Source of the DNA: Pseudogymnoascus verrucosus
Lineage: Eukaryota
DNA: 51,254 nt
NCBI GenBank assembly: GCA_001662655.1
Contig: KV460268.1
Direction: 5' to 3' (one strand)
Shown here: positions 11,182 through 42,915 of the stretch, piece by piece
Numbering within the stretch: position 1 is the stretch's first letter
Layout of the letters: every line of letters begins with the position of its first letter
Position numbers and translations under genes: made by a program
The notes under the pieces: model-generated
The model's input: only the letters and a program-made list of their open reading frames with translations
Database searches by the model: none
What the model was told of the DNA's origin: nothing

Positions 11182-11284
11182 TATATATGGTCGTACGATT
11201 GGTTTACTAATAACGGAACCTATCTCCCTTGCAACTAAGGGTGGCAGGATGGTTTCTTAGACCGTAATTACACTTTAACTCCTC

Positions 11285-15707: not shown

Positions 15708-15799
15708 TAGGGTGGTAACGATCAAAAAATAAGGGACAAGGGCAGCGAGGCTCACCTACTAGGCTAGAAGTCACCGATTTAACTATTATCCATATGTTT
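15708..15799 (-). mobile_element. Terminal segment of a 5S-targeting element (inverted relative to the copy starting at 24775)
   Basis: AAAATAAGGG..AAGGGCAGCGAGGCTCACCTACTAGGC matches the reverse complement of ~24810-24853 and abuts a half-5S at the same breakpoint. Confidence 0.8.
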
Positions 15800-15862
15800 G
15801 CTTAAGATCACTAGATCAGTAGCTAGGTAGGTAACCACCAGCAAATACCCACTGTTATATGT
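15800..15862 (+). pseudogene. 3' half of a 5S rRNA gene, degenerate
   Basis: 63 nt colinear with the reverse complement of 24712-24774; differences mostly TG>TA; followed by a T-run. Confidence 0.85.
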
Positions 15863-16619
15863 TTTTGCCATTTTATTTTAGCTTGTTTTAGGCTAGAAAT
15901 GTTATAATTATACAAACGTTAAAACGTGGAGAGAGAGAGGGGTATATGAGAGAGATGATATGGGGGTTTGTTCCTGGTGTATGCGTGGCGATTCGCCAGG
16001 GGGATGGAAAGGATAGTTGATCAAAGACCCTTTATTTAACTCCTACTCCTAATCCTATCTACATCCACAACCCGGCCTGCAACGCATACCCATGCCATAC
16101 ACCAACCCCATCCCATCCCATCTCGTGCACAACCCCCCAACCACGCATCAATCCATTCATACACCTCCTAATGCAGCACCACCCCACCACATTCTACACC
16201 CTGCAAAGCCGAAAAAAAAAACACCGACACCGCCAATGTCCTGTATCCCATGTGTGTTCTGTATGCCACATGTATGATATATGCCCCAATGATGCCAGTG
16301 GTGATAGTATACAGTCTACAAGACCCGATCCATCTCTTTCGTCATACCCCCTATCACAAGATAGCACACGGTAGCCGGGGGTAGAGAAGGCCCATACATC
16401 TCCATACCGCTCGCTGTGGAGGAGTGCCTAACCTCAGATGATGGTGATACGCGGGGTCCTAGCACGCGCGCGCCAAAGACGCTGAATATGCGCACAAAGG
16501 GCGGGTACGTGCATATGTGCATGTGTATCCAAAAGCCCTTCTCGTATTGGGACAAGGACGGACGGAGGCAGACGGACGGACAGGACAGGACAGGAAGGGA
16601 CGCAGAACCGCAGAGCAGC

Positions 16620-22460: not shown

Positions 22461-22934
22461 AGGGGAAGTGGGCTGGGTTGGTACAGTCGTAGATGGCTTG
22501 TACGTTGGTAGCAGGGGGGGTTGTGGGATAGCTTCAGAGTGGCTGGATTGTCGGTAATGAAAACATGAAATAGAAGAGAAATTAGGTATAACTAAAGATA
22601 ATAAACTATTAGAAGATACAACTGCCATATATTCTCAAGCTATTTGACTTTCTAGTAAGATCTTGCAATCTCGTATGTCCCAAGTATAAGTTCCTGAGTT
22701 GGGGTCGCACAGAACCCCTCCCCCGCAATCGCGGCTAATAAATAATCCGGCCCCAACATGGAAGCTTCAAGAAACTAAGCACTGAAGCTCTTAAACCCCC
22801 ACCACCACCACAAACAAACACCTCGATCTTCAGCCTCACCAAAAACCACACCTTTCGAAAAACCTACCAATCCTCAACCCACCTCTCACCTCACCTCAAT
22901 TCACCTCCCAGATACCCCCCACCAAACCGCAACC

Positions 22935-24038
22935 ATGTCCAGCCCCCTCGTCTACTTCGACATCTCCATCGGCTCCAAGCCAATGGGCCGCATAATCTTC
23001 ACCCTCTACAACTCCATCGTCCCCCTCACCGCCGCGAACTTCCGCTCCCTCTGCACCGGCGACAAAGGGATCGGCAAATCCGGCAAACCCCTATCCTACG
23101 CCGGCTCCACCTTCCACCGCGTGATCAAGCAATTCATGATCCAAGGCGGCGACTTCACCGCCGGCAACGGCACGGGCGGCGAGTCCATCTACGGCGAGAA
23201 ATTCGCCGACGAGAACTTCGAGATCAAGCACACCAAGCCCTTCTTGCTGTCCATGGCGAACGCGGGGCCCGGGACGAACGGGAGCCAGTTCTTCATCACC
23301 ACGGTCCCGACGCCGCATCTAGATGATAAACATGTCGTCTTCGGCGAGGTCGTGGCGGGGAAGTCGATCGTGAGACAGATTGAGAATCTGCCTACCCAGG
23401 GCTCGGATAAGCCGGCGCAGGACGTCACGATCACGGCGTGTGGGGAGTTGCCGGCGGATTATGAGGTCGGGGATGCGAAGAAGGCGGATGCGACTGGGGA
23501 TGCGTTTGAGGATTTCCCCGAGGATGCGAAGACGGCGGATAAGGAGTTTGAGGCTGCTGAGATTGTGAAGATCGCTTCTGCGCTCAAGGAATACGGGAAC
23601 ACGGCTTTCAAGTCGGGAAACCTCCAGTTGGGCCTCGATAAATACCAGAAGGGACTGCGCTACCTCAACGAGGACCCAGACCTAGACGCCGCCTCCGCTG
23701 ACGACAAGGCTGCCCTCCGCCAACTCCGATTCACCCTCCACTCCAACTCGGCCTTGCTATCTAACAAACTCTCCCTCTTCCCCGACGCCGCCAAGTCCGC
23801 TACTTTCGCTTTGGAGGTCCCCTCTATCACCGACATCGAGAAGGCCAAGGCGCTGTACCGTCGCGCGCTCGCGAGCGTGGGCATGAAGGATGATGAGGCT
23901 GCGCTGAAGGATCTTGAGGCTGCGAAGGCGCTGGTGCCGGGCGATGCAGCGGTGGTGAAGGAGTTGGGTGCTGTGAAGACGAGGGCGGCGGAGCGGGCGA
24001 GGAAGGAGAAGGCGGCTTATGGGAAGTTCTTTGATTAG
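22935..24038 (+). CDS. CPR6: Peptidyl-prolyl cis-trans isomerase D (cyclophilin-40, TPR tail)
   Basis: [32 protein letters not shown] and [10 protein letters not shown] motifs; C-terminal TPRs (KALYRRA) ending YGKFFD. Confidence 0.95.
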
Positions 24039-24711
24039 ATGGTGTGGGGAGTTGGATTGATATGGGTGTTTTATGGGGTTGGAGGGATGGATGGGGGAGT
24101 CTGATTTAGGGATTGAGCGTGGGGGTGATTTTTTTAAAAAGAGAAAAAGAATGGGGGAGATGGATGGTTATGTTGGTGGTGGAGAGAGGGCGTGAGGGAG
24201 CAAGAGGAATAGCTATGACATCTCATGAACGAGAAATGAGGGTAGATAGACGAATGAACATTCCCAATTTTCGAACCCCATGCACAAGCATGTACGTTAA
24301 ACGTGTAACAAGTATTTCATTCCGATGAATCTTCACGACTCCAGGCCGCCACCAGCAGTGTAGCGGGTCAATAATCAACACGGCGGTGTAACTCCACAAC
24401 AAAACAGACACCAAAACACATCATCTCCATCGAACAGTGTTTTTTACATGCCAAAGAATTAGCTCACCATAAACACTGGCGCAAATATACACAAAAGCGA
24501 AATAGCGCAGTCATAGGGTATCTTATTGCACTCCCCCTTTTCCCTCACCCCTTCCCCTCCCCGGCTCACCTACCTCTTACTCCTACCTCGCATACCAAAA
24601 ACCAAATCCCCACACATAACCATTCCATCGCATCACCTCTCTCCATGTTTCAGCGTTTTGGCATTCCCACTTCTAGGCCAAAGGGGCAAAATAAAAAATA
24701 AATGGCAAAAA

Positions 24712-24774
24712 ACATACAACAGTGGGTATTCGCTGGTGGTCACCCACCCAACTACTAATCCACCGATCTCAAGC
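24712..24774 (-). rRNA. 5S rRNA gene, 3' half (interrupted)
   Basis: Reverse complement GCTTGAGATCGGTGGATTAGTAGTTGGGTGGGTGACCACCAGCGAATACCCACTGTTGTATGT followed by a Pol III T-run terminator. Confidence 0.95.
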
Positions 24775-24934
24775 AATCCTCTGGCAGATTGTTAAATAGG
24801 TGCCATCTGGCCTAGTAGGTGAGCCTCGCTGCCCTTACCCTTATTTTGTGATCGCGACTATCTCGACTACATTGACCACCCAAAAGTAGGTCTATTTTTT
24901 ACAACACGTTGTATTACAACAGTAGACGCCTATA

Positions 24935-25024
24935 GGTGAGTGGGTAAGTATGCTAAGGAAGGTGAGTAAGGTGAGCAGGGTGAGCAGGGTGAGCAGGGTA
25001 AGCTAGATGGGCGAGAAAGGTGAG
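24935..25024 (+). repeat. Subterminal GGTGAG(CAG) array, left end
   Basis: About six GGTGAG copies including tandem GGTGAGCAG x3. Confidence 0.8.
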
Positions 25025-26119
25025 TACAGCCAAACTAAGAAAATAGTATAAAGGGCCTGCTACCTGCTTCATATTCTACAGTCTCTATCTGCATTATATA
25101 TTTCCTTTCAAAGTATCTGGTACTATAGGACACCCAGTCTATACTCCTAAGGAGAGAGCTGCTATATCACAGGGGCAAGGTTTTATTATACAGACTACAC
25201 TGAACAGAAGTCTGTTCAGTCGTGCCTTCCTGATTACCAGAACGGGTAATCACCGAAGGCAAGAAAGTTGGGGCTACCGGGGGGTGGCAGGGGGGGCCTT
25301 GGCAATTACTACTACGGGTAATGGTCAGGCCGAAGGTCAGGCTGCTAAAACTGTCTAATGTGCAGGTGCACGGGGTGAGGAGGGAGGGAGGCCGGTGGTG
25401 GATAGATCGTGCACGAGTGTTACGTGAGAATTTAGATGATAGATGTAGATAGATATGTTTTGAAATAGACACAATGAGGTCCATACCCTTTCTGTAGTGT
25501 AACTTACTGATGGCTCTGCAACGAGTAGAAAATGGGAAGCCAAAGCGTTCTGAAGTGGGTGGTGGTGAGTTCATTCAGTGGGTGTTTCTCGCCGCCCGCT
25601 GGTACGAAGGTTAGCTGCGCTGGGGGGAAGAGTGGAGCCACTGGCGAGCTGGTCTACCAGATAATTTCCACGCACGTCAGCATCGGCAATCGATACATCG
25701 ATACGGCCAGTCGCGGGTGGGAAGCTTAAATGGACAACTATGAACAGCCCTATTTAGCAATGCAGATTACAGGGAGGCGTCACTGGGAACACTCAACATC
25801 TGACCTTTCACCTTCCGACTCTCTTCTGTGCATGAGCGGGCATCACATACGACCTTGTGAGGGAAACAATACGCTACAGAGAAAGCTCACGGGGGCGGTG
25901 GGCTCACAGGAGTCGAGCCCTCCAGGGGGTGTTCTCTCAGGAGAGAGAGTCTCTGAGGAGCTTTGTCCACGGAGAAGAAACGAACTCGGAGCATACTCCT
26001 TGGATGTACGAGCGCCCAGGAGGATCCTCCCGGGAGGATCCTCCTGGAGTGCTAGTCGGTTACAACGGTTATTTGCTATTAAATAAATATTTCATCGTTA
26101 TATTCTTCCCAAGTGTAGA

Positions 26120-28640
26120 TTAGGTACATGTTCCAAATGTTCCAGTCTTATCGCAATATGTTACACAATAGTCTGTCGAAGACCCGCAATCTCCGTATAT
26201 CGAACAGCAAGATCCGAAAGTTGACTTGGAACAAGTGTATCCCGTCGAGCCGCCGCAAGTCCCATCTGGGGAAACGTCGATCGTTGACGTGCTTTTTGCG
26301 CTTGACGTCGTCGGGGACGCGCTGCAAGTGCCGAAGACGCCCGTGGTATCACAATATGTCGAGCAGAAATCGGACGAAGAGCCACAGTCCCCGTAGATGG
26401 AGCAACAGGCGCCAAATGTCGACCCGGAGCACGTATACCCAGTCGAGCCCCCGCAAGTACCGTCGGGCGAGACCACGAGCGGGGAGGTACTCTTAATGCT
26501 CGAAGTTGTCGAAGTCGGAGAGCAAGTGCCGAACTGTCCTGTCGTGTCGCAGTACGTGCTGCAGTAATCGGCGCTGCTTCCGCAATCCCCGTATATGGAG
26601 CAGCATCTTCCAAAGGTCGAACCGGCGCAGGTATAGCCAATACTACCGCCACACGTTCCATCTGGGCTCACGACGAATGTCGAGGTCGAGGTCGGGCTAC
26701 TAGCTGTGCCTGTGCCCGTTCCAGACGTCGTGGTCGCTGCAACGGTAGCTGGTGCCGTGTACACGATACTCGAATTGAAGGGAACAGTTGGCAAATCATT
26801 GGGGTCAACATCACACACGCGATCGTACTCGTTGATCCAGTCTGTATCATCATACATATCTTGCGTTGGACCTGTTTCGGTGATGTTGTACTCTTCCTCG
26901 ACGTCGAGACAGAGCGTGTACGTTGCTAAGGCGGAGTATACAGAGGCATTGACTGCAGCAAGGGTAGTTGTTGTTGGTGTGGGCCAGGAGTAGAAGAAAT
27001 GTCTGACATTTGTGAGTACAATCCGTGAAGCATGTCAGAGAAAAAGAAGCTTACGTCGTGGTTCTATTCGCAGTCGCCGTAGCGTTGCGATTGATAGTTG
27101 ACGGCAGACTGGTGTAATTCGCGAGCGATGCAGCCACAGTCGAATACCCAGAGTAAGTGGCGACATTCCCAACTGCTTCAACACACTTTACTAACATGTC
27201 AGTAATTTTCTTTAATTTGGTCCAGGAAGGAGGCTCACATAGGAGTTTCCAAGCCATAGGTTCCCACAATCTGGAGCAATCTGAGGATTTAAGAAGTAGA
27301 ATGTTGCGTTGGTGATGCCGAATGTGGCTTCAATGGATCCGCAGGTATCGTTGGCAATAATGGTGTACCAGTAACCACAATCCACATTTGTGGTGCCGAC
27401 AGCATTGGTTGGAACGGCACTGGAGACAGTCAGTGACCGCAGTGGGGGGTTAGAGAGATACGATTGAATTGTATAGAAGAGCAAGGGACAAGCTCAAACT
27501 CTCAGCGGGGTGTAGAGAATATCCCCCACTACATCACATGGCATGAACTTACACTGCAGTTGCGGCAGGCGGGAGGTAGAGTGGCATCGGAGAACCAGGA
27601 GGGCTTGACAAAAGTTAGTGCACTGAAACATGAATCTAGAAGTCTGATTTCTAACCTGATGCAGATGTACGTGCCAACAAGAGCAGCTAGATTGGAACAT
27701 TGAGAGTTGATATTTGAGTTCCACGACGCCAAGTCAGCATTGGTGATCCCTGACGAAAAGGAGGAAATGATAGATGTGCAGGTATCGTTCGTCTTGACCA
27801 GATAGACGTCGCAAGTCGTTGGCAGACACAGTTTCTCGCCTGTACTCAAATAAGAGCAACCCTGATCCAGCCCGTTCAGGGAGGTCAGAGAACCAGTTGA
27901 CACATTTTGAGAAGCAGAAATGTCGATACAGGAGTCATTTGCCAAGACTGTGTACAGCGCAACACTCGGGTCCGTCTTGTTACAGCGGTCTCCAGAGGTC
28001 ACTGTGGGCGTTGCAGTCGAAGTGCTCGAGCTGGATGTCGCCGTGTAGGTAGCCGAGTAACCAGTGGCTGAGCAGCTCGATACTTGCGACTCAAATTCCG
28101 AGTTGCTGATTAGAGCCTGGCCCCATTCTGAGTTGACGATGCTTTCCATATAAGTCAGGTAGCATGTGCTGCAACTGACGCCGGTCGAAGAATTGGCGAG
28201 CGCCTCCTGGAAGTAAGTATTGCAGTACTCGCCAGAGGAAGGATCAGTCAGGCATGTGGTGCTTTGTCGCCATTGCATTTCCCTTCCTAGGTCCGCTGCC
28301 GTTTGGATGGTTCCGGAGATGTTGTATGTGGCCGTTGCCCCGCATACAGAATCAACGTTGGCAACATAAGCAGAAAGAGCAGTGGTGCAGTTATTTGCGC
28401 ATATAAATCCCAGAGCGCTCGAAGACCATGTTCTGCCCAAGAGGTCAAAGTCAGTATATACTTCTACCGGCTAGGATTGGAACATTCTCACGTTGTGTCA
28501 GTTACTGCCGATCTAAGGTTAGCATAGCAGCTGACATCTGCCGTAAGAGCTGAGAGGCACGAGGCTGAAGCAGAGATATTGGCAAATGCTGTGCTTGAAG
28601 AAGTGTATATGTACAGCAAGTCGACCGATGGGGTAGACAT
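26120..28640 (-). CDS. LysM + hevein (CBM18) chitin-binding protein
   Basis: Three LysM-like units (YTVLANDSC, YLVKTNDTC, YTIIANDTC) and three C-terminal VSPDGTCGGS.GYTC...CCSIYGDCG repeats; multiple introns; start at 28640 inferred from GCCATG context. Confidence 0.88.
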
Positions 28641-29557
28641 GGCGCCGAAAAGGAATGTGGTGATATGGTTGTAAAGACAGTTGGAGGGGGATTAGAAGCC
28701 TCTTGGGTCAAAAAAGGCTCCTCGAGGACTCTCCGTCGACCTCTGAACTGGGGGATGGGGTTGGCACGACCTCGAAGTCGGTTGGGCATAGGGAAGATTG
28801 AGGAGCACCATGATCGTCTTAGTGAAGATGCAAGGTTCGTTGCTGAAATCTCGATTCCCATCTCCGAAAAATCTGAAATGCAGGTACAGCACTGTAAATC
28901 GAATAAGCTCACGCAGGTGCTCACATGAAAAATTCAGAAAACCTTGTCTCCATGTAGCTACAAGCAGAATCCTTCAGAATCCTTTGAACGGAAGCAATGC
29001 CAAGCTGAGCCAAGTCTCGATCTAAAGGCTTATCCAGATCCATCTCGGCGTATTATCCTTGACAATAGCGGGTCGTGCCGCCGTGCACGTCAGCCACTCA
29101 CGATGTTCCCCTGAGAGGCTCGATTCCAAATAAGCTTACCTAGGCCACACATCTCCACTGGAATGTAACCTTACATCCACGCGGGTTCTGGCAATTATGG
29201 GTCTGACTTCAATTGCAGATCTGCCGGAGTTCGCACCTTTACAGCAAGTGTCCCTCAACCCCCCACATCACCAATACCAATGTCAAACTTGCACTTTGAC
29301 CTTCATTTTCAAAGCTAGGTACAGAACTGTGTCTCATTTCCGCTCTTGCAAATTCTTCATGAAATGCCCCAGTATCACAACTAAGCTTCAGCTCTACGCG
29401 TAGGATTTCAAAGGATTCCAGCTTATAGCTCAGCAAATCAGTTGCCCCTCAGTCTGTCTTTGCCGTTTGCTCCTGATCCTAATGGTAGCTATGTCTTGTC
29501 TTCCTCACCTCCAAACTTCTTGAAAGTATACCGTCTTTACCTCATTGCCGCAGCACA

Positions 29558-32500
29558 ATGGCGTTGCTTCCAACAAAAGCATCTTGGCCTGAACGGCTTT
29601 TTACACTCTTTATACTTCTTTCTGATTTACACATTACATCTCTAGTTTCTGCTCAGACAATCACTTGCAGCAAGGCAAGTCCTTGTGTAAACAATGCTTG
29701 CTGCAGTGTCGCTGTTGGGTCTACTGAAGGAGTAAGTTTGCCCATATGGAAGATGATATCCTCAAAGAGAAATCTCACAAGGGCGTTTGCTGACCGTTCC
29801 TCCAGATCTGCGGATATGGACCTTTCTGCAACACTACTACAACCGCTACTTGTGTTAGTAACTGCGATGCAAAGGCCGAATGCGGTAAATATGCAAAGAT
29901 ACCTGGAGCGACATGTCCTCTTTCTACCTGTTGTTCAGAATGGGGTTTCTGGTAAGTCGTTGTCCATCACTGAAATTCAAGTATTTTGCATTGAGAGCTC
30001 TCGGGCGCTGCTCTTTGGACAGCGATTGAGCCTGCATGCTTTCCTGTAGCATCCTAAATCTACAGCGCTAATTCATTAAATAGCGGTACAACGACTGAAT
30101 TTTGCGCGGATCTCTGCCAAAATAACTGCTTTGAGCCTACTGAACCATCCTGTACCTCAAATGATGTCCTGAAGAAAGTGATAGGCTATTACGAAAGTTG
30201 GTCGTCAGATCGGGCATGTGACGGCTGGGGACCAAGCGACATCTCTGCCAACGGACTCACACATGTTTTTTACTCATTTGCCTTGTTCGAAGAATATGAT
30301 TCCGACTGGAACGTGTATATTCCAGCACTGGATCAAGCTCAAACCGAGGCCGAAATGCTCAAACCTTTTATGGCTCTTAAACAGAAGAACCCTGGTCTAA
30401 GTACTGTTATTTCAGTTGGTGGATGGTCAGTAAATAACGTGCCCAATGTTCCTGTGGTGCTCTTTACTAAATCTAGTCACAGGTCATTCAATGATCCACC
30501 AACAGCAGGCTATTGGTCTACGATGTCGTCGACCGCTGCTGGTAGAAACTCTTTCGCTAAGAATCTCCTTGCATTTATGGTACTCTATGGTTTCGATGGT
30601 GTCGATTTGGACTGGGAATACCCTGGGGCCTCTGATCGTGGAGGAGACACGACGTTATGGGTAGACAGCGATAACTACATAGCCCTCATCAGGGAAATTC
30701 GCATGGTTTTCGATGCTACGGGAACAGCATACACGATTTCATTCACTACGCCTGCCAGCTACTGGTATCTCCAGACATTCCGGGTCAACGAAATGCTCTC
30801 AGCCGGTGCTGATTGGACCATGATGATGACTTACGATCTACACGGTGTTTGGGACGGCGATGACCCATATATCGGTAAAATAATCGGTTCTCATACTAAC
30901 TTGACAGAGATCAAAGTTGGCCTAGACTTGCTCTGGCGAACTAATGTAGATCCTTCCCAGGTTCTCATGGGCATAGGATTCTATGGCCGTTCTTTTACTT
31001 TGAGTGACATTGGCTGCCAAGATCCCGGATGTCCTTTCGATTCAGCTGGTGTTCCAGGTGTATGTACTGCCACTGCTGGAATTCTTTCTTATAAAGGTAG
31101 CGTTTGTTCTGCTCTGTTCGCTGCCAAATCTGTACTAACAAGAACAGAAATCACTGCGATCGTCACTGCTGGAGAAGGTACACCCGTGTGGAATGAAGAG
31201 GCAGCTGTCAATTATCTGACCTTTGCCGACAATCAGTAAGACTTTCCAATTATAAACTTGCGACTCTAAGTCAAACTTCCAAACAGAACAACTGACATCA
31301 TTTTCTATAGATGGGTTTCATACGACAATAATGTTACCTTTAAACAGAAGGTTGATTACGCAAACCAAATCTGTCTTGGAGGGGTCGGTATCTGGGCTAT
31401 AGACTTGGATACCTATGACTGGCAGGCACTGAGTGCTTTGACAGGCAAGGATATAAATGGCGGCTCCCTTCTAACCAGCGGTGGGGACCCTACCGAGCTT
31501 GCTTCAGCTTATAACGCTTACACCGGAGCTGATTGCTATGTCTCTGGATGCGTTGACTGGAACACAGGGTCGTGCAAGGCCGGGTACAGCGTGCTAGACT
31601 ATGTGCACTCTGGATCCATGGGTGTGATCGAAGATCCTGACAAGAATTTGTGCCGCAGAGGTGATGTGTCTGTTGAAGAGTCTACAGATTCACAATATCG
31701 TTTGATCTGTTGTCCGACAGATGCGATGCCAGTCAGCTGTTCATGGGAAGGAGCAGGAGCAGGAGTAGGATTTGCATTGTTCCCGCAATTCTGCAAGGGT
31801 GGCGGCTCTGGCTTCTGTGGCGCCGGAAAGTTTGAATTGATTGCAGACTCCTATACCGAAAGGACAGGAAGTACTCCGTGCATCTTGAACAAGCGATCTT
31901 TGTGCTGCGCAACGGATCCGGAGCTGGAACTCTGTTCTTGGACAGCTTGTGGTGACTCCTGTCTAGAGACACAGTATAAGAACCCCAACACTTCTGTGTA
32001 TGGCGGATCAAGTAAGTGTTGCCCCGAACAAAACACCAAATCTGACTAATGATGTTTCTCAGATCTCAATCAAGATTCTGAACTCTGCGCCGATGGCGCG
32101 AATCCAGCCGGCCCCTCTTCATTCTGCTGTCCCAGTAAAGGCACGCACACTCCTGATCCATGCCAATACTATCCTGCTAACTAGTTATCCAGATACGTAT
32201 ACTGGCTGTGCCTGGTATGGTGACGACTACTGCACGAAAAGCTGTCCGAGCGACAAGATTCTCATTACACAAAGATCGGAAATTGAGGACCTCCAAATTG
32301 AGCAAGGTTTGCCAGGTGGCTACGATGAATGTGTCACTGGATACCTGAAATACTGCTGCGATCCTCCTACAGCGACAACAGACTGGCCTGTCAGTCCGAC
32401 AGATTTGTTTGAGTACCCTGATACAACACACGTGAGCTACGAGTATGTCAAAGAGGATTCATCATATGACGACTGTATGTCTATATTAACTCCTCGTATT

Positions 32501-35500
32501 TTTTCTCATACGAATTACTGACTGTACTATAGATGATAGAGAAGAAGATGGCCCATTCGCCTTCGTGATGATTGACGGAGATACAGCCGCTTACAGCGAG
32601 TCACTGGTGGACCAGTGGGGCTTCCTCGATGATGACTTGAACCTATCAAAGAGAAAAATAAAGAAGCGCGACATGTTCACTAAACAAAACGACACATTTG
32701 ATAATGTTGTTGAGACATACACTATTAAGTGTCTTAATCTTGCCGGCTGTGAGGGTTTGTTTGAGAAAGGGGCTTCAAATACCATTGTCAAGCTGCCCGA
32801 CTCCATAGGTGCAGGACCTTATGCCAGGATTATAAGTCTGGAGCCTATCGGATCGACGAAGAGGTCAAGCAATATAGTGCCACGATCAGTAGGCGATACC
32901 TACAACTTGGTCGTGGATTATGATCTCGCAGGTGCCGCTGTGGAACAGAAGGGCGATGTTAACTTCAGAATCGATTACTCCAATCTCGTGGACTACTGGG
33001 CCGACGTCACAGACACTCCTGCGAAGAACAGAAAACGATGGTTTGGAGCCTTCAAGGCCTGGTTGGCCAAAGTCACGACCATGGTCAAATCGGATACGGG
33101 ATTCCTTCCCTTAGAGTACGAAGAGAACATCAAACTTTTCCATTTCGCCAAAACCTGCCCAAAGACCAATCTCAAAACGACCCTCGATTTGGACGCCAAT
33201 ATACATATGGGATTGTATGCCCAATACGCCTACTACTTTGAGGGCTCAATTTTGCCGACGCCAACTTTGATTGCATCTTACGGTTACTTTTCAGTGTCAC
33301 CCGCCGCCGCCGTACGTCGTCAGACTCCATGCTTTATTTTATCTTTCTAACCATCTTACTAACTACTGGCAGATCTTGATGACTCTTAGAGGCGAAGCCA
33401 TCATCCAAACGAACTCAGATGTTGTCAACATCTTAAGTGGAATTACCCTCCCAGGACTTTCTATCAAAGGACTCATCAGCATTGGTCCAGAGTTTGATTT
33501 GACAGGTTCTATGGATGCTTCATTGCAGGTTTCTGGCGAACTTAACGCTGGTGTTTCTGTCGCATGGCCCAAGGCCGAAGTATTTTTCCCCCAAGACAGT
33601 GATGGAACTGGGGCAACTATACCCCCAGGGACTTTGGACGATCCAAATGATCCTGACAAGCAGCAGACTTTTTCAGTAGTACCCACCTTTGACGCAAGCA
33701 TCACGGCTGTTGGAAATCTTGCACGCAAGTTATAGCACATCTTTCCTCACAGGAATTTACTGACAGTGTATTAGTGACTCTTACCCCTCAAGTCAAATTC
33801 GGAATATCTGTCTTAGGCGACGCTCTCATGAGCGGATATGTCACAGCAGGCGTAGCTAATACCATTACATTAGGACTCTCTGCTGGTGCCAGTGTTAGCT
33901 CAACCACTGGAGCTACTGCTGAGTTTTGTTATTGGGCAGACTATGTCTATTCTGTCTTCCTCTCTTCTGATGTCTCGTATGTTGGCCTCTCTTAACTCTA
34001 CGTTGGGCGTGAACTGATAAAAGTTACCTAGATTCGCCAATGGACTTGCTTACTGGGGTAACTCTATAGAGTTGGCATCGCCTGAAGATCCCCTGGTTCT
34101 CATTGACAAGACATGCGTTGACTACTCCTCAACCCCAGCAGACAAGCGAAAGCGAGATGATGCAAACCTTGTCCCTCTCACTACAGGAACGCCATGCTTT
34201 GGGGGTTTGATATCGTGCGAGGACACCGTTGACAACACAACTTGTGCAGTTGGAGGTCCTTCTTCCAAGCGAGACACGTCAACTTGTTACCTGCCTCCAG
34301 CACTTTTCTATAACTGCGCCTTCTTTCAACCTGGGCGTGTTGTCAACGACAATGAGAATACTCGAGCTGGTGGTGCATACGAGACATTCATTAGTAAGTG
34401 GCGCAACCTTATCTCAACTTATACCCTGCTGCGACACGTCTGCTAACATTTGACGTAACAGGTATTTGCCAAAATGTTCGAGGATATCTCCAGGACAACA
34501 ATAACGGTCAGACAATTGGATCCAACTGGATGCAGCTGACTTATCTTCCCGGCGGAGGGACCAATCGAAACGACGCCTGTAAGGATGTGTCTTCGGTCTG
34601 TGCCTTCACAAAGTCGTATCTGTGGCCGACAGCTGTTTTTGAGGCAGCGTTGACAGCCAAAAAGGATGACAAGGCCTACATGAACATGGCAGGGTACTCT
34701 GATTCAATTTCTTGCGATGAATTTCCCTTCAATGCTTCCGAAGAAGGTGGTTCTGGGGCGAACGCAGCATGTGTTACAAATGACCAGCAATTTTACCAGG
34801 GCCAGATCAATAATCTTGTTTCTAACGTCTATGATCTTGAGGAGGATAGCTTATGGTCACCTCGTGCTCCTAAACCAAAGTGGAACGGTGGCAAAAGACT
34901 CTACACCATAAATCTGTTCGATGCATCTACCAATGGAAACGATCTCTCTTCACCTTACGCTGGTACATGGAAATCGTCTGCAAATACTCCAAGCGGCGGT
35001 CTTACTCAGGTTGTGGGAGGTATCAATCTACAAGGCAATCCGCAATATCAATTAGGCGTTAACGGAGACGTGCAAAACGGTATTTGTATGACGATGCCAC
35101 GAACGATGACCCTTGCTGCTACTCAGAAGTTTTACAAATTGAAGGTACAGAAATGCTTTATCACCTTTGAAACGCCTGAGGATTTAACAAGGAGGGGCTT
35201 GGATCCTCAAGATCCACAGAACTGGCAGATCAAATGTGTGTACAAAGTTCCCCCCAAAGCATTATTGCTGTCAACCCTCACAAATAAATTCACACTAACA
35301 CCTTGGCAGCTGTCCAACTTGAAGATGATGACGAAGAGCTAATAAAGACGGAAAATGATGGCTTTGAGATGGATATCATAGAAGAGATTACTAAGGAGAT
35401 TGAGGTCTTAGATATTGCGAAAAAGTATCCAGCCGAAGCAGTGATTACACCAAGCCCGAGATTGGGACCAGGTCATGTACATGGACGTAGACATTATTAG
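29558..35500 (+). CDS. Subgroup C (killer-toxin-alpha-like) GH18 chitinase with CBM18 and C-terminal NucA/NucB-like domain
   Basis: Signal-peptide-like start; hevein CPLSTCCSEWGFCG; intact catalytic DGVDLDWEYP; MTYDLHGVWD; Cys-rich linker; KR|WFG; C-terminal SCDEFPFNASEEGG; about 11 GT-AG introns join the listed ORFs. Confidence 0.88.
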
Positions 35501-36126
35501 GCTGATAAGTAATTTTGGGGAACGAATTTTCTGAATTAAGTAGCTAAGTAACTATAACAATGTACTTATATTCTTAGATGAGTTCACTGCATTTAGTTAG
35601 TTGTAGGCGTAGTTTCAATGATCTTGTATGTCGAAATAACGAAATGATATCTGGGACCCCCCAGTTGCTGGCGATTCCGCAGTCACTGTCGATTCCGCAA
35701 TCACTGTTGACTATAGCTATTATATTAGCGACTATTACCGTTTATACCATAGGAAGTCACGAAAAGAGGCAGAATGAATACACAGTATCATGATCAGAAA
35801 ATTGTGAAATGCGTAGAAGACCATCCTCTCATTATGGTGAGTCTTCCAACTATATACGTAGCCCTGACACGACGCTGTGATAGACTACGCGCGTTAACCC
35901 GTACATTCAGTAAACTGAGAATGATCATATTCATCCCCTTTCCCCTCAGCCTCGAGGGCAAGATATCCCGGAGCATTCTGCTCGATCAGTGCTGGCCATT
36001 CATCAGGGCCCTGTTCAAGGTGTCCTGTAGCTTTCACATCTGCAAATATCTCTAGAATTGGCTTCGAGATATCGAGACTAAAACTCAGTTAGCACATTCT
36101 AGACTAGCAATTGGTTTGCTCCAAAC

Positions 36127-36993
36127 TTACCGCTGTCCATATTCCCCCTCATCGACATCGGCATGGACCCCATCAAACCCAGCATTTCCTCGTATCTCTG
36201 CCAACCCTTTCGCCAACCCATAGTGCATGTTATACAGGTAATTTAACTCCAGAACAGATGGCCGCATGTTCAACACCACATCTCCGTTGGATTCGATGTT
36301 TACAATCAAAAGCATGCCGTCCTCCAAAGACCGTTGGTCGGCGAAAACCCATTGATTCAAACCCTTAAAAGTAACTGTAGCATGGACAGTCATATACATC
36401 CAATTGAAATCAGCATTCTCTACAAATCCTGCCTTCATGAAATCCTTAGGCTCTACACCAGCAGTCGCTGAATGCGGCGATGCCTCAAGAACGCCGACCT
36501 CACAGATTCCATCGTTGGAATCGTAGAAGTCGTAGGAAAGAATCCGAAGCTTGGTCCACAGGGCTCGATTGCGAGGTGTATCGAGAGGCGCGATACAAGT
36601 GTACCATGATAAGCTGGATACATCGCCCCTTGGGAAGTACTGCTTCACAGCGCGGTTATTCCAGACCGGTGGCGATTCTAAAGCACGTGCGTGGAATTGA
36701 TCTCGCAAAGTCTGCGGAGCTTGAATCCATTCAGAGACGAGCGCTCGTCTTTGATTGGCTTCATATTCCTGGCTTGCTTCTCCGGATGGTTTGGGTATCC
36801 ATTTTTCCTACGTCGATGTTAGCATAGTAGCCTCGGAGACCGTACAGTGGAAACAATTGATCGAGGGGCAAGATTTCACCTTCACAAATAGTTTCCAGCC
36901 ATTAGTCAATTCGTCGACTTTGTCATCGGCTGTAGGAACTCCGTCGAATTTGACGTACGATGGAATGCCGCCTGGCCAGTATGAGAATGGCAT
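36127..36993 (-). CDS. Uncharacterised protein with WPGGIP motif and HMG-box-like N-terminal segment; start uncertain
   Basis: Intron 36808-36879 joins YWPGGIP...TNGWKLFVK to EKWIP...RRALVSEWIQAPQTLRDQFHARA and the 193-aa ORF; frame stays open upstream to ~37170; no signal peptide seen. Confidence 0.7.
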
Positions 36994-37649
36994 ATTGAAG
37001 TGCCAAGAAGGGTGAGGACGGAGGACGGCTGCGAAGTCAAAATTGCGAAGTGGAGGTGGGTAATAGTAGTGCGAGTTGAGCAAGGATTCAAGCGAGGTTT
37101 CGGCGCTGATCCCTAAGTCATGAGGGCGAATAAATATATTTGAAAGAGTGTTCTGACTACGAGGTTTGATAAAAAGTCAAGGAGAATGGCCAGTCCACCG
37201 AATTTCGTAAGGTAACAGTGTGTTGTAATTGCTCTTTCGCCTGCCGTAACTCCTACTGTACCGAACATGTCACAGTACCCGTTGGACGGGCAGCCAAGTT
37301 TACTTAACATGTCCGCTGAAGCTTCGCAACTACGAACGCCCACTACTTCGCGGAATATAATGGCCAATAGTATATCATTTCAGCTGCTTGACCGGTTAGA
37401 CTATTAACCATAAATGGGGTTGCAATGGTTGCAAGGAGCTGGAAGGACTGAGAAGTTTGAATATCGTTTGTTTGGTTTTAGAGGTTTGGTTCCGTCGCTA
37501 AATCACGTAAACCTCTATATTCTGAATGATCCCAAAAATAGGAGCAAAGGCGCCCTTAATATGGTACGTAAGCTCAGACGGCTAAACTTCGGTGTTGATA
37601 CGAAAATGACGCCAAATTGACGCCAAACTGACACGAAAATGTTGCTTCG

Positions 37650-37701
37650 CCTCACTCACCCTGCTCACCCCACTCACCCTGCTCACCCCCAGGCTCACCC
37701 T
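37650..37701 (-). repeat. Subterminal CTCACC array, right end (inverted versus 24935-25024)
   Basis: CTCACCCTGCTCACCCCACTCACCCTGCTCACC...GCTCACCC. Confidence 0.8.
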
Positions 37702-37775
37702 TCAGGCGGCAAGGGGCCGCGATTCCACGCTATGCCTATTGGCACGATTGAGACTATTAGCAAGAGGATACGCAG

Positions 37776-37833
37776 GCTTGTGTATGGCAGAGCGGACGGG
37801 ATGCCCAATTCTCTTGAGTCTATGGTCGTATGT
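37776..37833 (-). rRNA. 5S rRNA gene, 5' half (interrupted)
   Basis: Reverse complement ACATACGACCATAGACTCAAGAGAATTGGGCATCCCGTCCGCTCTGCCATACACAAGC; its CTCAAG pairs with CTTGAG of the 3' half. Confidence 0.95.
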
Positions 37834-37903
37834 GACTGTTACTCTCATATCGAGCTACAACTAACTACTACCTTGCGGGCAGGAAACCCACAAACGAAGC
37901 AAA

Positions 37904-37966
37904 ACAAACAACAGTGAGTATTCGCTAGTGGTCCACCACCCAACTACTAATCCACCAGCCTCAAGT
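37904..37966 (-). pseudogene. Second 5S rRNA 3' half, degenerate
   Basis: ACAAACAACAGTGAGTATTCGCTAGTGGTCCACCACCCAACTACTAATCCACCAGCCTCAAG is colinear with 24712-24774 and breaks at the same position. Confidence 0.85.
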
Positions 37967-38275
37967 TAGCCTGTAGATAATAGTTAAATTGGTGCTCTCC
38001 AGCCTAGTGGGAAAGCCTAGCCGCCCTTGCCACCATTATGTGATGGCGACCACCTTAACATTCAAAAAATTGGTGATGTATTTCAGACGCGCTCTACCGC
38101 GACATTGGATGCCTACAGGTGAGCAAGGTGAGCGGGGTGAGATAAATGGGCGATGAAGGTGGGTACTGTTGAGTTAAGAAAATGGTATAAAGGGCTAGTT
38201 CCCCGCTTTCATATTTCACGGTCCTCTGTATGCAACTTTGTTTATTTTCTTTTATCTGCTACCATGACTGGAAAT
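37967..38275 (+). mobile_element. Terminal ~300 bp of a related, older 5S-targeting element (far end not found)
   Basis: Colinear similarity to 24775-25130 (GTTAAAT..GGTGC, GCCTAGT, GCCTA.AGGTGAG, TAAGAAAAT.GTATAAAGGGC, TTCATATT). Confidence 0.8.
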
Positions 38276-38680
38276 GCCCTGCAACATACCGAGCTGGACA
38301 GACAGTATAGCTTGGCTACCTAGGTATAGAGTCTACGTGTATCAAGGCAATTCGGCGCCAAATTCCATGATCTTCCAAATGTTTACTACGTCTCTATTCC
38401 GCGGGGATATCTTTTTAAGGCGATGGTCAGGTGGTGATTTTAACAATGTGTGGTTTGCCACTCACTCACCTAACCCGAATTCAATATACAGAGTGTTTCG
38501 TCTGCTCTAAGAGAGTTACTCCACGGAGATACTGGAGTGGTTCGGTCATAAGTGAATTGTGACGTCACCATCTCCCCTCTCTTTATAACTCACACACTAT
38601 CTATATTACATTCTTCCTGTCGAGTTACCTACCATCTAACCAGCATCCATGTGTTACTAAATAGATATCAAGAAAACAGC

Positions 38681-39040
38681 ATGCCATCAAACAAGCACTC
38701 CATCGACGTCGCCCATGTCAAAGATGGACACCCGCGCAGTGGGCAAGCTGTGCTGGTGGACCGGATCTGGCCGCGAGGCCAGCGCAAAGACGAGGCACCA
38801 TGGGACGAGTGGCTCAAGGCAGTAGCACCGACAACAGAATTACGCAAGTGGTATGGGCACGACCCAGACAAGCATGATGAGTTCGTCCGCCGTTATAGCA
38901 TTGAGCTTCAAGGTGACGAGCCAGCGGAGGCCTTTGAGCATTTGCGAAAGTTGCACCAGAGCGGAGACTTGACTCTGATGACCGCCACTAAGGACCTGGA
39001 GACAAGCCAGGCTAAGGTCCTTGCAGAAATGCTAGCTTAG
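38681..39040 (+). CDS. DUF488/YeaO-family protein (bacterial-type)
   Basis: VLVDRIWPRG..K......EWLKAVAPTTELRKWYGHDP..HDEFVRRY signature; intronless, 119 aa. Confidence 0.9.
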   Translation: MPSNKHSIDVAHVKDGHPRSGQAVLVDRIWPRGQRKDEAPWDEWLKAVAPTTELRKWYGHDPDKHDEFVRRYSIELQGDEPAEAFEHLRKLHQSGDLTLMTATKDLETSQAKVLAEMLA

Positions 39041-40559
39041 ATTGGCGGCTCAAGAGCAGTGAGAGGGTAGAGCGTGGAGCACTTGTGGCATCTTTCCTTT
39101 CTGAGCAAGTATCGTACCGTGTACATGCTTATTGAGAAGGGTAAGTTTCCCGAATCTCCACAAGCTAAGAACAGAATCCTGACCTATTCACCGTCTAGTC
39201 CATATAGCGCAAGCACTACTCTACCATGGAGCACATTGACGGCTGATGTATTATCAACTAGATAAAAATAATTGCTAGGGGTCTTAGCAAACTACACCTT
39301 TCAGCTCAATCCACTTCGTGCAATGTGGCATTGACTATGAGTAATTTTCTTAGTGTCACGAACTCTATCAAATATATATATTTTTCTTATTTTAGATAAC
39401 TTTGCAGCATGTAATTTCCTGACCGAGGGAGCACAAACCTCCTTTCCCTATTTGGAAATCAAATTTCCAGTAACGCTCGTGGACCTACGAACTCGGCTCG
39501 TTCAAAATCAATCCCAGTTATTCATGGTAGATCCAAGTAGATGAGACTGATCTGGACTATCTTGCGCCTTTACGGTCTGCGAGTAAAAATTGGCAGGATC
39601 GAATCTCTCAAAGCGCTCCCACAAGTCGTAAAAAAAACAAGCGCGATCTGGAGCACAGGACGAACTAGAACGTCCCATCCAACTTACCTCGCCTTGTTAC
39701 ATTTGATAGGTGTGGCTCTGGTTCTGCAATAACAACTGTGCTTAGCCGTTTGATTTCATACAAATCTTAGAAGAGGAAGAAAGATTGTAATCCTCTTGCG
39801 ACTAGGTGTAAGACACAGTATAGAGGCGATGGATTGCGTGGGGCTATCTAGACCTGGCGTTACAGTAGGTCCACTGTTTGTGGCTATTAGGTGATCCGCA
39901 TTATCTAATAGTGCCTTAGGACATGGACATTATTAACATGAGGAGATGGATTATTCAATTTAGGGGCCAAGTCTAACGCGAAAAAAAAATGTGTGCTACA
40001 TGACGCAGCGTTACAGGGGCGTGGTGAAGAGTTAGAAGAGGCACAGCGCGAGAGCGGGGATGGAGAAATATTGTTCTATACTGAAATTTAACTGAATATT
40101 CTTAATTTAAACACCTTGCACCTTATTAATGATTGCTAGCTGCAAATATTTGCTCCCCTGTTGACTGTGTTGAGAACATGCCTAGCAACTGTCATACTAG
40201 GGACAGACGCCAACTGTGGTGGTCAGTTAACGTTCATGTGCTTAAGGCTGTAGTTATCCAGTCGCGTACACCTGTTAGCAGCCTCAATGTAGCTGATCAG
40301 TTGTCTGTCAAACGACAATTGTAGCTGAGAGAGAAGAAGTATCCCATAGAGCAGGACAAGCTGCATGTAGAAGTAAGAGGCAGTCCTGCGCGTACATAAG
40401 CCGTGAATAGAGTCGTTAATGACAGGGCATAGTTCAGATATCTGCTATGAACCACGCCGTCCTCATAGCAAACAGAGGACGGAGGAGGCCATCCTAGTTA
40501 TCTATAGACATTGGCAATTTTGATATATCTGATATGGTAGCTTACGGCATTACGTCTAG

Positions 40560-42060: not shown

Positions 42061-42915
42061 GCTGGGCGTAATAAAACAGATAGATAGACCATAGATGAAT
42101 TTGCACGCTACAGCAGCTACAAAGCTGATGACGATCTCCTGCATGGTGGGTAAGACATTAAGAGCTTCGATAAGGCCCCATTATAAGTATCAGGTATACT
42201 CTGCTTTATGTCTGCTTTAAGTGCCTCCATTCAATTGTGGTGGCAATCCCTACACGATCCCGACCACACATCGGATGATAAATATAGTCCATCAAGTGGA
42301 ACAGGTGGCGGCGACGACTGAAGTCCAGTGAAGATGTCATTGGCAGACCAGTGGCCACCACCAACACTTCTCACTGCTGCCACGACCCACCGTCGACCTT
42401 TTTCACCACCGATGCCTTTCCGCTGCCTAAAACTTTTGCTACATAGCCCCAGCATACTCTTATTCCCCGTCCCAAATCGATAGATATCCGCTGTGAGCCG
42501 GGTAATCTCACCCATGTGCTGCAATCCGTGCAAGGCCCATGAGGAATAGTTCATTGCGCTTCAGCCTGTGATTTATGATACAGATGGTCTAGCTATAAAC
42601 GTAGATTTCGCTGTCAACTCAGTAACATCTTCGTCGCCATCGTCGCCTTCTTCTTCATCAACGCTGTGGCGGACATCTAGGGTGATCTTTAGCTACCGTG
42701 GGCCATGAAAAAGATAAAAGTATGTAAATTTATTAAGTATACATGCAATATACACATCTCCTCCACACCTTCCAAATAACATCCAACCCGAAACGAAACA
42801 TAAATGCCAAAAACGCGCTTGTATCCCAGAAGACCCATTTCCAAACGCCCTCCTACTCCATCCCGCTGTATAAAACTCAAATCCACTACTTCACATCGCT
42901 CACTTCACTGCTACC

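What the first reader, a model, noticed from the sequence alone, without database searches (positions are those of the whole stretch)
24712..37833. Complete 13-kb captainless cargo element inserted in the middle of a 5S rRNA gene
Seen: removing 24775-37775 and one GC copy restores ...CCACCGATCTCAAGCTTGTGTATGG..., a 119-nt 5S with pairing ends and a T-run terminator. Both halves look undegraded. I see no tyrosine recombinase or transposase inside. Known: some Starships (DUF3435 captains) target 5S rDNA, have short direct repeats and asymmetric TIRs, and are usually much larger. Inference: this is a minimal non-autonomous Starship-like element mobilised in trans, with both ends resolved to the base.
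Basis: partly seen in the sequence, partly recalled or inferred. Interest (0 to 1): 0.92.

Follow-up and report, generated by a model that had tools for sequence, protein, structure and literature searches.

The report
Captainless cargo element splitting 5S gene
A 13-kb piece of mobile DNA carrying a chitinase gene set but no enzyme of its own for moving sits exactly in the middle of a fungal 5S ribosomal RNA gene, and looks like a small hitch-hiking relative of the giant Starship transposons.

Summary
A 120-nt 5S rRNA gene on the minus strand is split at 24774/37778 by about 13.0 kb. The same joined sequence occurs at about 25 times single-copy depth in four related genomes. The flanking repeat is 5 bp, not 2: CAAGC on the left and CAGGC on the right, inside the palindrome CAAGCTTG. 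The insert has weak terminal inverted repeats and inverted blocks of a 9-bp subterminal repeat. It carries three apparently intact genes: a CBM18/LysM protein, a ~1,680-aa GH18 chitinase, and a protein of unknown family. A six-frame Pfam scan found no recombinase or transposase.

It belongs to a family. Two more "5S 3' half plus same left end" junctions lie in the window, one only 67 nt from the split gene. Contigs of related genomes show 4 and 6 further right ends at the same 5S site.

The best reading is a non-autonomous Starship-type element, site- and orientation-specific and mobilised in trans (confidence 0.55). No captain-bearing partner and no empty site could be found. A DDE-transposon origin, or a fixed relic within a larger composite, remains possible. 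5S-targeting Starships, captainless relics and trans-complementation are all published, so this is a new variant of a known kind.

The parts
24711..24774 (-). 3' half of the split 5S rRNA gene (64 nt), followed by a T5 run at 24706-24710
   Evidence: (Rfam 29.4 bits); joined fold; the intact joined form is seen in 4 of 4 runs.
24770..24774 (.). Left direct repeat CAAGC (part of the 5S sequence)
   Evidence: The right-hand partner is CAGGC at 37773-37777. Other family right ends carry CAAGC (loose ends before 37776).
24775..37772 (+). The inserted element proper, 12,998 bp
   Evidence: joint skips 13,003 with 2 shared letters.
24776..24806 (+). Left terminal inverted repeat (weak; starts ATCCTCT)
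   Evidence: 22 of 31 positions match the reverse complement of 37739-37769. Score 18 against shuffles 14.1 +/- 2.1; 21 of 300 shuffles reach it.
24961..25003 (+). Left subterminal block of the 9-bp tandem repeat GGTGAGCAG
   Evidence: 9 matches in the window against 0.4 expected, all at the two ends of this element and at the left end of copy 2. Also (33 nt, 91% inverted match to 37655-37687).
26123..28933 (-). Cargo gene 1: secreted-type protein with hevein-like chitin-binding (CBM18) and LysM modules
   Evidence: Chitin_bind_1 in ORF 26120-27034 and LysM (2 stretches) in ORF 27529-28470. The extent is approximate; the exon structure was not resolved.
29558..35497 (+). Cargo gene 2: large multi-exon GH18 chitinase with a CBM18 module and a C-terminal NucA/NucB-like domain
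   Evidence: Glyco_hydro_18 2.3e-51; DNase_NucA_NucB 1.1e-7; 1,650-1,680-aa homologues P0173 and P0175 map in about 10 pieces over 29558-35497.
35909..36993 (-). Cargo gene 3: about 330-aa protein of a small family with no Pfam match, three exons, apparently intact
   Evidence: 51 relatives, best 68-75% identity; 0 of 7 homologues have a Pfam family; the in-frame stop lies in an intron.
37654..37687 (-). Right subterminal block of the 9-bp repeat, inverted relative to the left block
37739..37769 (-). Right terminal inverted repeat (ends AGAGGAT)
37773..37777 (.). Right direct repeat CAGGC (one transition away from CAAGC)
   Evidence: ('both' = 2 for the joint).
37778..37833 (-). 5' half of the split 5S rRNA gene (56 nt)
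   Evidence: (the only match in the window).
37903..38265 (+). Copy 2: a second 5S 3' half (37903-37966, minus-strand sense) joined at the same position to a related left end, with its own 9-bp repeat block at 38118-38142. It starts 67 nt beyond the 5S 5' end.
   Evidence: (78% over 150 nt, 74% over 153 nt).
15719..15935 (-). Copy 3: inverted copy of the junction, consisting of about 80 nt of left end (15719-15799), a 5S 3' half (15800-15863, plus-strand sense) and about 70-110 nt of the flank beyond it
   Evidence: 78% over 222 nt; 53 of 64 identical, 1 purine/pyrimidine mismatch.

Best explanation
The 13-kb insert is a complete, non-autonomous member of a family of mobile elements. The family integrates at one position and in one orientation in 5S rRNA genes, at the centre of the palindrome CAAGCTTG.

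The most likely mover is a Starship-type tyrosine recombinase (captain) encoded by another element elsewhere in the genome and acting in trans on the element's ends. It would exchange strands within a 5-bp core (CAAGC) shared by the element junction and the 5S gene, leaving that core on both sides.

The element carries a chitin-related cassette (CBM18/LysM protein plus a large GH18 chitinase) and one gene of unknown family. It lies in a 5S-rich landing zone beside two more junctions of the same family.

Shown: the split gene, the 5-bp repeat, the paired ends, the lack of a recombinase gene, and further family copies at the same site.

Inferred: the enzyme class, the trans mobilisation, and present-day mobility.
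For: (1) Clean split of a 120-nt 5S gene; the intact joined form is present in 4 of 4 related runs.

(2) Same site and same orientation in 3 of 3 junctions in the window. In addition, 4 contigs in X2 and 6 in X4 read a related right end (...GGATTA-CAAGC) straight into the 5S 5' half (loose ends before 37776).

(3) Both ends are present: ATCCTCT/AGAGGAT termini and inverted blocks of a 9-bp repeat found nowhere else in the window except the left end of copy 2 (9 matches against 0.4 expected).

(4) No recombinase or transposase in six frames or in window ORFs. The inward-facing gene at the right end is not a captain.

(5) Published passages read:
- 23% of curated Starship insertion sites are in 5S rDNA, at >=5 distinct internal positions, with strand-specific orientation. 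The Enterprise type has a 5-6-bp repeat within a 10-12-bp palindromic target, and most Aspergillus Enterprise-family elements target 5S (PMC11162782).
- A 5S-rich Starship hotspot exists in Aspergillus fumigatus (bioRxiv 10.1101/2024.06.28.601215).
- The Hephaestus captain works in trans on a mini-element (PMC10104507).

(6) The element interior is closer between lineages than the left flank. In X3 there are 55 differences over about 11.3 kb, against 105 differences plus 46 gap letters over 2.2 kb of flank. In X4 the figures are 162 plus 17 gaps over 11.25 kb, against 96 plus 43 over 2.2 kb. X4 has the element but no cover of 38508-41175, so the unit is separable from its right-hand neighbour.

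(7) Contigs in 2 to 3 of 4 runs join left-end to right-end sequence, skipping about 12.6-12.8 kb. This hints at internally deleted small relatives.
Against: - No DUF3435 gene was seen in the 51-kb window, and no captain-bearing relative could be searched for.
- No empty allele at this locus and no presence/absence polymorphism: the interior is present in all 4 runs laid.
- The repeat is 5 bp, whereas 5S-targeting Starships are reported with 6-16-bp repeats, and repeats over 6 bp are associated with 5S targeting.
- At 13.0 kb it is below the smallest Starship in the starfish set, 15,020 bp.
- None of the conserved Starship accessory genes is inside it.
- Subterminal tandem repeats and miniature derivatives are classic features of DDE TIR transposons.
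- The terminal inverted repeat is statistically weak.
- The right repeat and terminus (..GGATACG-CAGGC) differ from the family consensus (..GGATTA-CAAGC), so this copy may no longer be a substrate.
- In X3 the high-identity block runs on past 37775 to at least 42499. The unit shared between lineages may therefore be larger than 13 kb.
Confidence: 0.55

Rival explanations
1. It is a non-autonomous cut-and-paste (DDE) TIR transposon that has packed host genes, comparable to the 14-kb ToxTA/ToxhAT element. It would belong to a family whose transposase recognises the 9-bp subterminal repeats and targets 5S genes, as Dada-5S does in fish. The 5-bp repeat would then be a true target-site duplication.
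For: - Terminal inverted repeats plus inverted subterminal tandem repeats.
- A short repeat of fixed length.
- Possible miniature derivatives (joints 24880->37728 and 24991->37587).
- Precedent for a 14-kb non-autonomous cargo TIR element in fungi (PMC12506042) and for DDE transposons specific for 5S genes (PMC8869645). That paper also reports replacement of one flanking repeat by another sequence, as seen on the right side here.
Against: - No matching transposase in the window. The only transposase trace is a hAT dimerisation domain at 8491-8799, and hAT makes 8-bp duplications (recalled).
- Dada makes 6-7-bp duplications and, in the passages read, is reported from animals and a protist, not fungi.
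- Strict single orientation relative to the target (3 of 3) is reported for Starships and is not expected of most DDE elements.
- In Pezizomycotina the known class that occupies internal 5S sites is Starships.
Confidence: 0.15
2. The 13-kb unit is not an independent transposon now. It would be one module of a larger, old composite (tandem insertions into neighbouring 5S genes, or a decayed giant Starship region whose captain lies outside the window or is lost), inherited or introgressed as a block.
For: - The split gene's 5' half is only 67 nt from another 5S 3' half joined to a related left end.
- In X3 identity stays at >=99% from 24964 to 42499, while the left flank is about 95%, so no boundary is seen at 37775.
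- Copy 3 shares flank sequence beyond the 5S end with copy 1, which points to duplication of an already formed junction.
- Captainless degraded Starship regions ('Derelict') are published (PMC9156397).
- The right repeat and terminus are mutated.
Against: - X4 has the 13-kb interior (98.6% identical) but no cover of 38508-41175, so the two parts occur apart.
- Both ends of the 13-kb unit carry matched repeat blocks, which a random fragment would not have.
- All three cargo genes look intact, and base composition shows no AT-rich decay inside it.
Confidence: 0.2
3. It is a chance or assembly-made juxtaposition: two unrelated 5S pseudogene fragments flanking ordinary host DNA.
For: Only one assembly is in hand. 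The ends are repeated in the genome, and short-read contigs break there.
Against: - The halves join to the base into the sequence of the intact copies.
- X2 has a 229-nt contig (24760-24988, 0 differences) across the left junction, and contigs starting at 37812 that run into the right flank.
- Paired end structures and further insertions at the same site.
Confidence: 0.03

Closest known systems
5S-rDNA-targeting Starships (Enterprise-, Arwing- and Voyager-family elements; Osiris of Aspergillus fumigatus)
   Same: Internal, gene-disrupting insertion in dispersed 5S genes. Fixed orientation. Short direct repeats that match the target. Optional imperfect terminal inverted repeats. Accessory-gene cargo. 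Several insertions clustered in a 5S-rich hotspot. The Enterprise type has a 5-6-bp repeat in a palindromic target (passages of PMC11162782, PMC9156397 and bioRxiv 10.1101/2024.06.28.601215).
   Different: No DUF3435 captain. 13.0 kb against a published minimum of 15,020 bp. A 5-bp repeat rather than the 6-16 bp reported for 5S targeters. The insertion point is mid-gene (about nt 56-58), unlike Voyager's 20 bp from the 5' start. It has 9-bp subterminal tandem repeats, which I did not see described in the passages read.
Derelict and other degraded, captainless Starship regions
   Same: Lack a DUF3435 gene while the cargo persists (PMC9156397; PMC11162782).
   Different: Derelicts are defined by Starship-specific cargo (FRE, DUF3723, OCH1) and decay. 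Here none of that cargo is present, both ends are preserved and the genes look intact.
Engineered mini-Hephaestus mobilised by HhpA in trans
   Same: A captainless element with intact ends is moved by a captain supplied from elsewhere (PMC10104507). This is the mechanism proposed here.
   Different: That is a laboratory construct of another family with a TTAC(N7)A target. No natural counterpart is described in the passages I read.
ToxTA (ToxhAT), a 14-kb non-autonomous cargo TIR transposon of wheat pathogens
   Same: Similar size; carries host-relevant genes; has no transposase of its own; embedded in Starship-rich DNA (PMC12506042).
   Different: It has a TA target duplication and Tc1/mariner affinity, with no 5S specificity.
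Dada-5S DNA transposons
   Same: TIR elements inserted at a fixed site in 5S genes, with one flanking repeat sometimes replaced (PMC8869645).
   Different: They make 6-7-bp duplications, encode their own DDE transposase, and are reported from fish, other animals and a protist.

Membership tests
Starship | DUF3435 tyrosine recombinase (captain) as the first gene at one end | tested here: not met
   0 hits in six whole-frame read-throughs of 24775-37775 at E<=0.1. 0 of 102 ORFs of >=85 aa scanned window-wide (102 of the 155 listed). 0 hits in six frames of 39040-42740. The inward-facing gene at the right end belongs to an unrelated 310-350-aa family.
Starship | Short direct repeats at both boundaries that reflect the target site | tested here: met
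   CAAGC at 24770-24774 and CAGGC at 37773-37777. Other family right ends carry CAAGC. The length of 5 bp is shorter than the 6-16 bp reported for 5S targeters.
Starship | Site- and strand-specific insertion (here: internal 5S rDNA site) | tested here: met
   3 of 3 junctions in the window are at the same 5S position and in the same orientation. 4 (X2) and 6 (X4) further right-end junction contigs are at the same base.
Starship | Terminal inverted repeats (present in many, not all) | tested here: inconclusive
   22 of 31 positions match. 21 of 300 shuffles score as high. The position at the very termini adds weight, but this was not quantified.
Starship | Empty insertion site in other individuals / evidence of transposition | tested here: inconclusive
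   Contigs break in the 5S repeat at 24733-24735 and 37812, so the locus cannot be read through. The interior is present in 4 of 4 runs.
Starship | Size of tens to hundreds of kb with multi-gene cargo | tested here: not met
   12,998 bp with three genes. The published minimum is 15,020 bp. That set is captain-anchored and could not contain captainless elements.
Starship | Conserved accessory genes (DUF3723, FRE, PLP, NLR) | tested here: not met
   None inside the element. An NLR (NPHP3_N/NACHT plus ankyrin, 1,420 aa) lies next to copy 3 at 11288-15547.
Derelict-type degraded Starship | Captain lost, Starship-specific cargo retained, ends and genes decaying | tested here: not met
   Captain absent (met), but there is no Starship-specific cargo, both ends are present and the cargo genes are intact.
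Dada superfamily | DDE transposase; 6-7-bp target-site duplication in a small RNA gene | tested here: not met
   No transposase. The repeat is 5 bp. The 5S target itself is shared.
5S rRNA (Rfam RF00001) | Match to the covariance model at gathering score | tested here: inconclusive
   The split gene cannot reach it: 29.4 against 38 bits for the 3' half. The joined sequence could not be given to the Rfam tool. Its fold and the high-copy intact form in 4 runs support the identity.

The most novel reading that the evidence does not exclude
This may be a natural family of recombinase-less 'shuttle' Starships, ranging from a few hundred bp to 13 kb. They would keep only the end sequences a 5S-targeting captain needs and be moved in trans. 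One member would have carried an intact chitinase/LysM cassette between diverged lineages of a soil fungus genus: the element is 98.6-99.5% identical where the neighbouring housekeeping flank is about 95%. Captain-anchored annotation cannot see such elements, so they could be a sizeable hidden layer of fungal gene mobility.
Probability: 0.3. Interest if true: 0.7.

Novelty: new variant of a known kind. Interest (0 to 1): 0.5.

Why it matters
Starships are currently found and classified through their captain gene. Elements that keep only the ends and borrow the enzyme are invisible to that approach. If small captainless elements with intact ends are really mobilised in trans, three things follow:
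- Cargo can move in much smaller packages than assumed.
- Counts of Starship-mediated variation are underestimates.
- The minimal cis-requirements for Starship transposition become readable from natural sequence (a 5-bp core, about 30 bp of terminus, 9-bp subterminal repeats).

Here the cargo is a chitinase/LysM pair, genes usually linked to fungal cell-wall attack and self-protection, so the element could spread an ecological trait among soil fungi. The practical value is a well-resolved test case, with both junctions known to the base and relatives in public data. It is not a new principle.

Tried and rejected
- **Whole-genome search and genome file:** no genome is held for this window. Other copies, a captain-bearing relative and the empty site could therefore not be looked for directly.
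- **Metagenome scans:** the right junction with degenerate positions and a left-end consensus motif each gave 0 matches. This says nothing about fungal genomes.
- **Reads and contigs:** all four runs are short-contig sets that break inside the 5S and end repeats. The locus could not be bridged and no empty allele could be called. Parts without cover in X4 (38508-41175) are reported only as absence of cover at >=90% likeness.
- **Partners for copies 2 and 3:** an exact-with-mismatch search and a purine/pyrimidine-space scan tolerant of transition decay found only the one 5' half. A right-end 60-mer found only itself.
- **Flank versus right end:** the idea that the flank below the 5S 3' end is an old right-end remnant was rejected. 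The local alignment is no better than shuffles (125 of 300 shuffles reach its score).
- **Right-end ORF as a decayed captain:** rejected. No longer relatives. It belongs to a 310-350-aa family without Pfam domains, and its stop codon lies in an intron.
- **Supplement of PMC11162782:** searched for the repeat and terminus motifs. There were only unrelated hits or none. The stored file is cut, so the curated repeats of the 23 5S-inserted Starships may simply not be in the part held.
- **Rfam microRNA hits at 11034-11191:** all are far below gathering scores. They reflect a palindromic repeat, not genes.
- **tRNA scan:** none found.
- **Earlier scan notes by sequence and for this genome:** nothing.


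Full report
**1. The observation**

The 5S gene is on the minus strand. Its first 56 nt are at 37833->37778 and its last 64 nt at 24774->24711, followed by a T5 run. Joined in a script, they give a 120-nt RNA with the three-armed 5S fold (-36.0 kcal/mol; variants).

Rfam finds no 5S at gathering threshold. It finds only the 3' half at a relaxed threshold (29.4 against 38 bits), as expected for a split gene.

The strongest confirmation is external. In contigs of all four related runs laid on 22500-42499, a joint 24772->37776 with two shared letters is present at 1257, 550, 952 and 328 depth units, against about 51, 22, 39 and 9 for single-copy sequence. That corresponds to about 25 intact 5S genes per genome with exactly the joined sequence. 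These contigs are short, so they do not show an empty allele at this locus.

**2. The junctions**

Contigs of other insertions read ...GGATTA-CAAGC into the 5S 5' half (4 contigs in X2, 6 in X4). The family repeat is therefore 5 bp, and this copy's right repeat carries a transition.

The target lies in the 8-bp palindrome CAAGCTTG of the 5S gene (one search prints the restored site).

The element proper is 24775-37772 (12,998 bp). Its termini start ATCCTCT and end AGAGGAT, with 22 of 31 positions matching. This is weak on its own, since 21 of 300 shuffles score as high.

About 190 bp inside the left end and about 90 bp inside the right end lie inverted blocks of a 9-bp tandem repeat (GGTGAGCAG). 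All 9 window matches to a two-unit probe fall in these two blocks or in the left end of copy 2, against 0.4 expected.

**3. Content**

Pfam on ORFs and on six whole-frame read-throughs with stops as X finds only Glyco_hydro_18, Chitin_bind_1, DNase_NucA_NucB and LysM. No DUF3435, other recombinase or transposase is found.

Three genes are present:
- A CBM18/LysM protein gene at about 26123-28933 (-).
- A multi-exon chitinase at 29558-35497 (+). Homologues of 1,650-1,680 aa map along it in about ten pieces.
- A roughly 330-aa gene at 35909-36993 (-).

The third gene sits where a captain would be, reading inward from the right end. It belongs instead to a small family of 310-350-aa proteins with no Pfam domain (51 relatives; 0 of 7 with Pfam). 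Its in-frame stop falls in an intron. The element is therefore captainless, and its cargo looks intact.

**4. A family in a landing zone**

The window holds three copies of "5S 3' half joined at the same base to a related left end":
- Copy 1 is the finding itself.
- Copy 2 is at 37903-38265. It shares about 355 nt of left end, including its own 9-bp repeat block, at 74-78% identity.
- Copy 3 is inverted, at 15719-15935, at 78% identity.

All three have the same orientation relative to the 5S gene. Only one 5S 5' half exists in the window, even in a transition-blind scan.

Copy 2's 5S 3' end is 67 nt from the 5' end of the split gene. Two 5S genes therefore stood in tandem, or two family members abut.

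Copy 3 also shares about 70-110 nt of flank beyond the 5S end with copy 1, and differs mostly by transitions. This suggests that an already formed junction was duplicated and then decayed.

Next to copy 2 is a DUF488 gene. Next to copy 3 is an intact 1,420-aa NLR.

A 5S-rich locus with several 5S-inserted Starships is described for Aspergillus fumigatus (passages).

**5. Relatives and history**

The nearest named proteins to the chitinase are from Pseudogymnoascus strains. The 90%-identity cluster has 7 members, 5 of them named, from 4 strains or species. The next relatives are only about 55% identical and come from Penicillium, Cytospora and Aspergillus. The window is therefore probably from that genus.

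In three of those assemblies the contig holding the gene is only 15-19 kb long. That would fit assembly breaks at repeated ends, but it is only a hint.

Results from the laid contigs:

| Run | Left flank 22500-24735 | Element interior | Right of 37775 |
|---|---|---|---|
| X2 | 2 differences | 6 differences in 11,353 nt | covered, 2 differences over 37812-42499 |
| X3 | 105 differences + 46 gap letters | 37 in 5,540 nt and 18 in 5,776 nt | >=99% identical to 42499 |
| X4 | 96 differences + 43 gap letters | 162 + 17 gaps in 11,250 nt, with G>A excess (142 against 41 C>T over all its laid contigs) | no cover of 38508-41175 |

The element is thus several-fold less diverged than the housekeeping flank, and it can occur without its present right-hand neighbour. 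This fits recent spread.

Two cautions apply. Only one 2.2-kb flank was compared. And in X3 the similar block does not stop at 37775.

Contigs that join left-end to right-end sequence while skipping about 12.6-12.8 kb occur in 2 to 3 of the 4 runs (24880->37728 in X3 and X4; 24991->37587 in X2, X3 and X4). These may be miniature relatives. The tool marks what lies between as unknown.

**6. Mechanism**

I consider integration by a tyrosine recombinase supplied in trans the most likely mechanism (0.55). The reasons are:
- One position and one orientation in a conserved multicopy gene.
- A short core shared by the element and the target.
- A palindromic target like that described for the Enterprise type.
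- The known dominance of Starships at internal 5S sites in Pezizomycotina (23% of curated sites, at least five positions).
- Experimental proof that a captain can act in trans on a mini-element.

The 9-bp repeat blocks could serve as accessory binding sites. That is an inference.

Against this reading:
- No captain was found.
- The repeat is shorter than reported for 5S targeters.
- The size is below the published minimum.
- The end architecture is equally at home in DDE transposons.

**7. Rivals**

- A DDE TIR transposon that has packed genes (0.15). ToxTA and Dada-5S are precedents.
- A module of a larger, now immobile composite or derelict region (0.2).
- An assembly artefact (0.03). This is contradicted by X2 contigs across the left junction and by the paired ends.

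**8. What is known, and novelty**

The following are in print in passages I read: 5S-targeting Starships, captainless degraded regions, Starship hotspots at 5S clusters, and trans-complementation.

I found no description of a natural captainless element with both ends intact. Searches were full-text term searches. I read listings for all three, and passages from PMC12506042, PMC9156397, PMC10104507 and PMC12256816. One search found one paper that names both Starships and this genus, a review seen only as a listing. The library lacks most subscription journals.

Earlier notes of this scan report similar captainless 5S-splitting inserts in other fungal genomes. They are unchecked leads. They suggest the form recurs.

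I rate the finding as a new variant of a known kind, with interest 0.5.

Noticed in passing
window 11288-15547 (-) with 15719-15863: An intact 1,420-aa NLR (NPHP3_N/NACHT plus many ankyrin repeats) starts about 170-250 bp (15547 to 15719-15799) from the inverted copy of the '5S 3' half + element left end' junction. NLRs are typical Starship passengers, but no other end of this putative element was found.
   Followed up: partly
window 37903-39037: A second junction of the same family lies 67 nt upstream of the split 5S gene, followed by a DUF488 gene (38552-39037). Run X4 has the 13-kb element but no cover of 38508-41175.
   Followed up: partly
window 6389-7224 (-): A distant paralogue (29-43% identity by tblastn with P0002 and P0178) of the element's unknown third cargo gene lies in the left accessory region. 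The family has no Pfam domain.
   Followed up: no
window 7570-7701 / 8304-8435 and 8491-8799: A 132-nt inverted repeat pair (98% complementary) next to a hAT dimerisation-domain remnant, in an AT-rich stretch (37-42% GC, 7-11 kb). This is probably a decayed hAT transposon.
   Followed up: no
window 11034-11191: Long palindromic hairpins give sub-threshold hits to several microRNA models (27-45 bits against gathering scores of 62-160). This is a repeat artefact, not microRNA genes.
   Followed up: no
window 29558-35497 (+): The chitinase combines CBM18, GH18 and a C-terminal NucA/NucB DNase-like domain. The same architecture occurs in about 1,600-aa proteins of Penicillium, Aspergillus and Cytospora at only about 55% identity. 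Against named congeneric proteins, the pieces at 29694-30046 and 32189-33314 are about 99-100% identical (the 30085-32151 piece scores lower, about 84-88%, likely from intron read-through), while the pieces at 33765-35497 are 93-97% identical, suggesting a mosaic history.
   Followed up: partly
run X4 laid on window 22500-42499: There is a strong G>A excess (142 against 41 C>T places). It roughly equals the extra differences of its element copy relative to X3. This is a RIP-like, one-strand signature and would imply the element was once duplicated in that lineage.
   Followed up: no
window ~41500-41660: A short AT-rich segment has very high contig depth in all four runs (192-1848 against 9-51 single copy), so it is a highly repeated, probably RIP-mutated, element.
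   Followed up: no
run X2, joint 37753 -> 24707: Two contigs read right-end-like sequence (stopping 22 nt short of the terminus), then about 31 other AT-rich letters, then the 3' end of a 5S gene. This arrangement, a family end lying just downstream of a 5S gene, is not explained by simple insertion at the mid-gene site.
   Followed up: no
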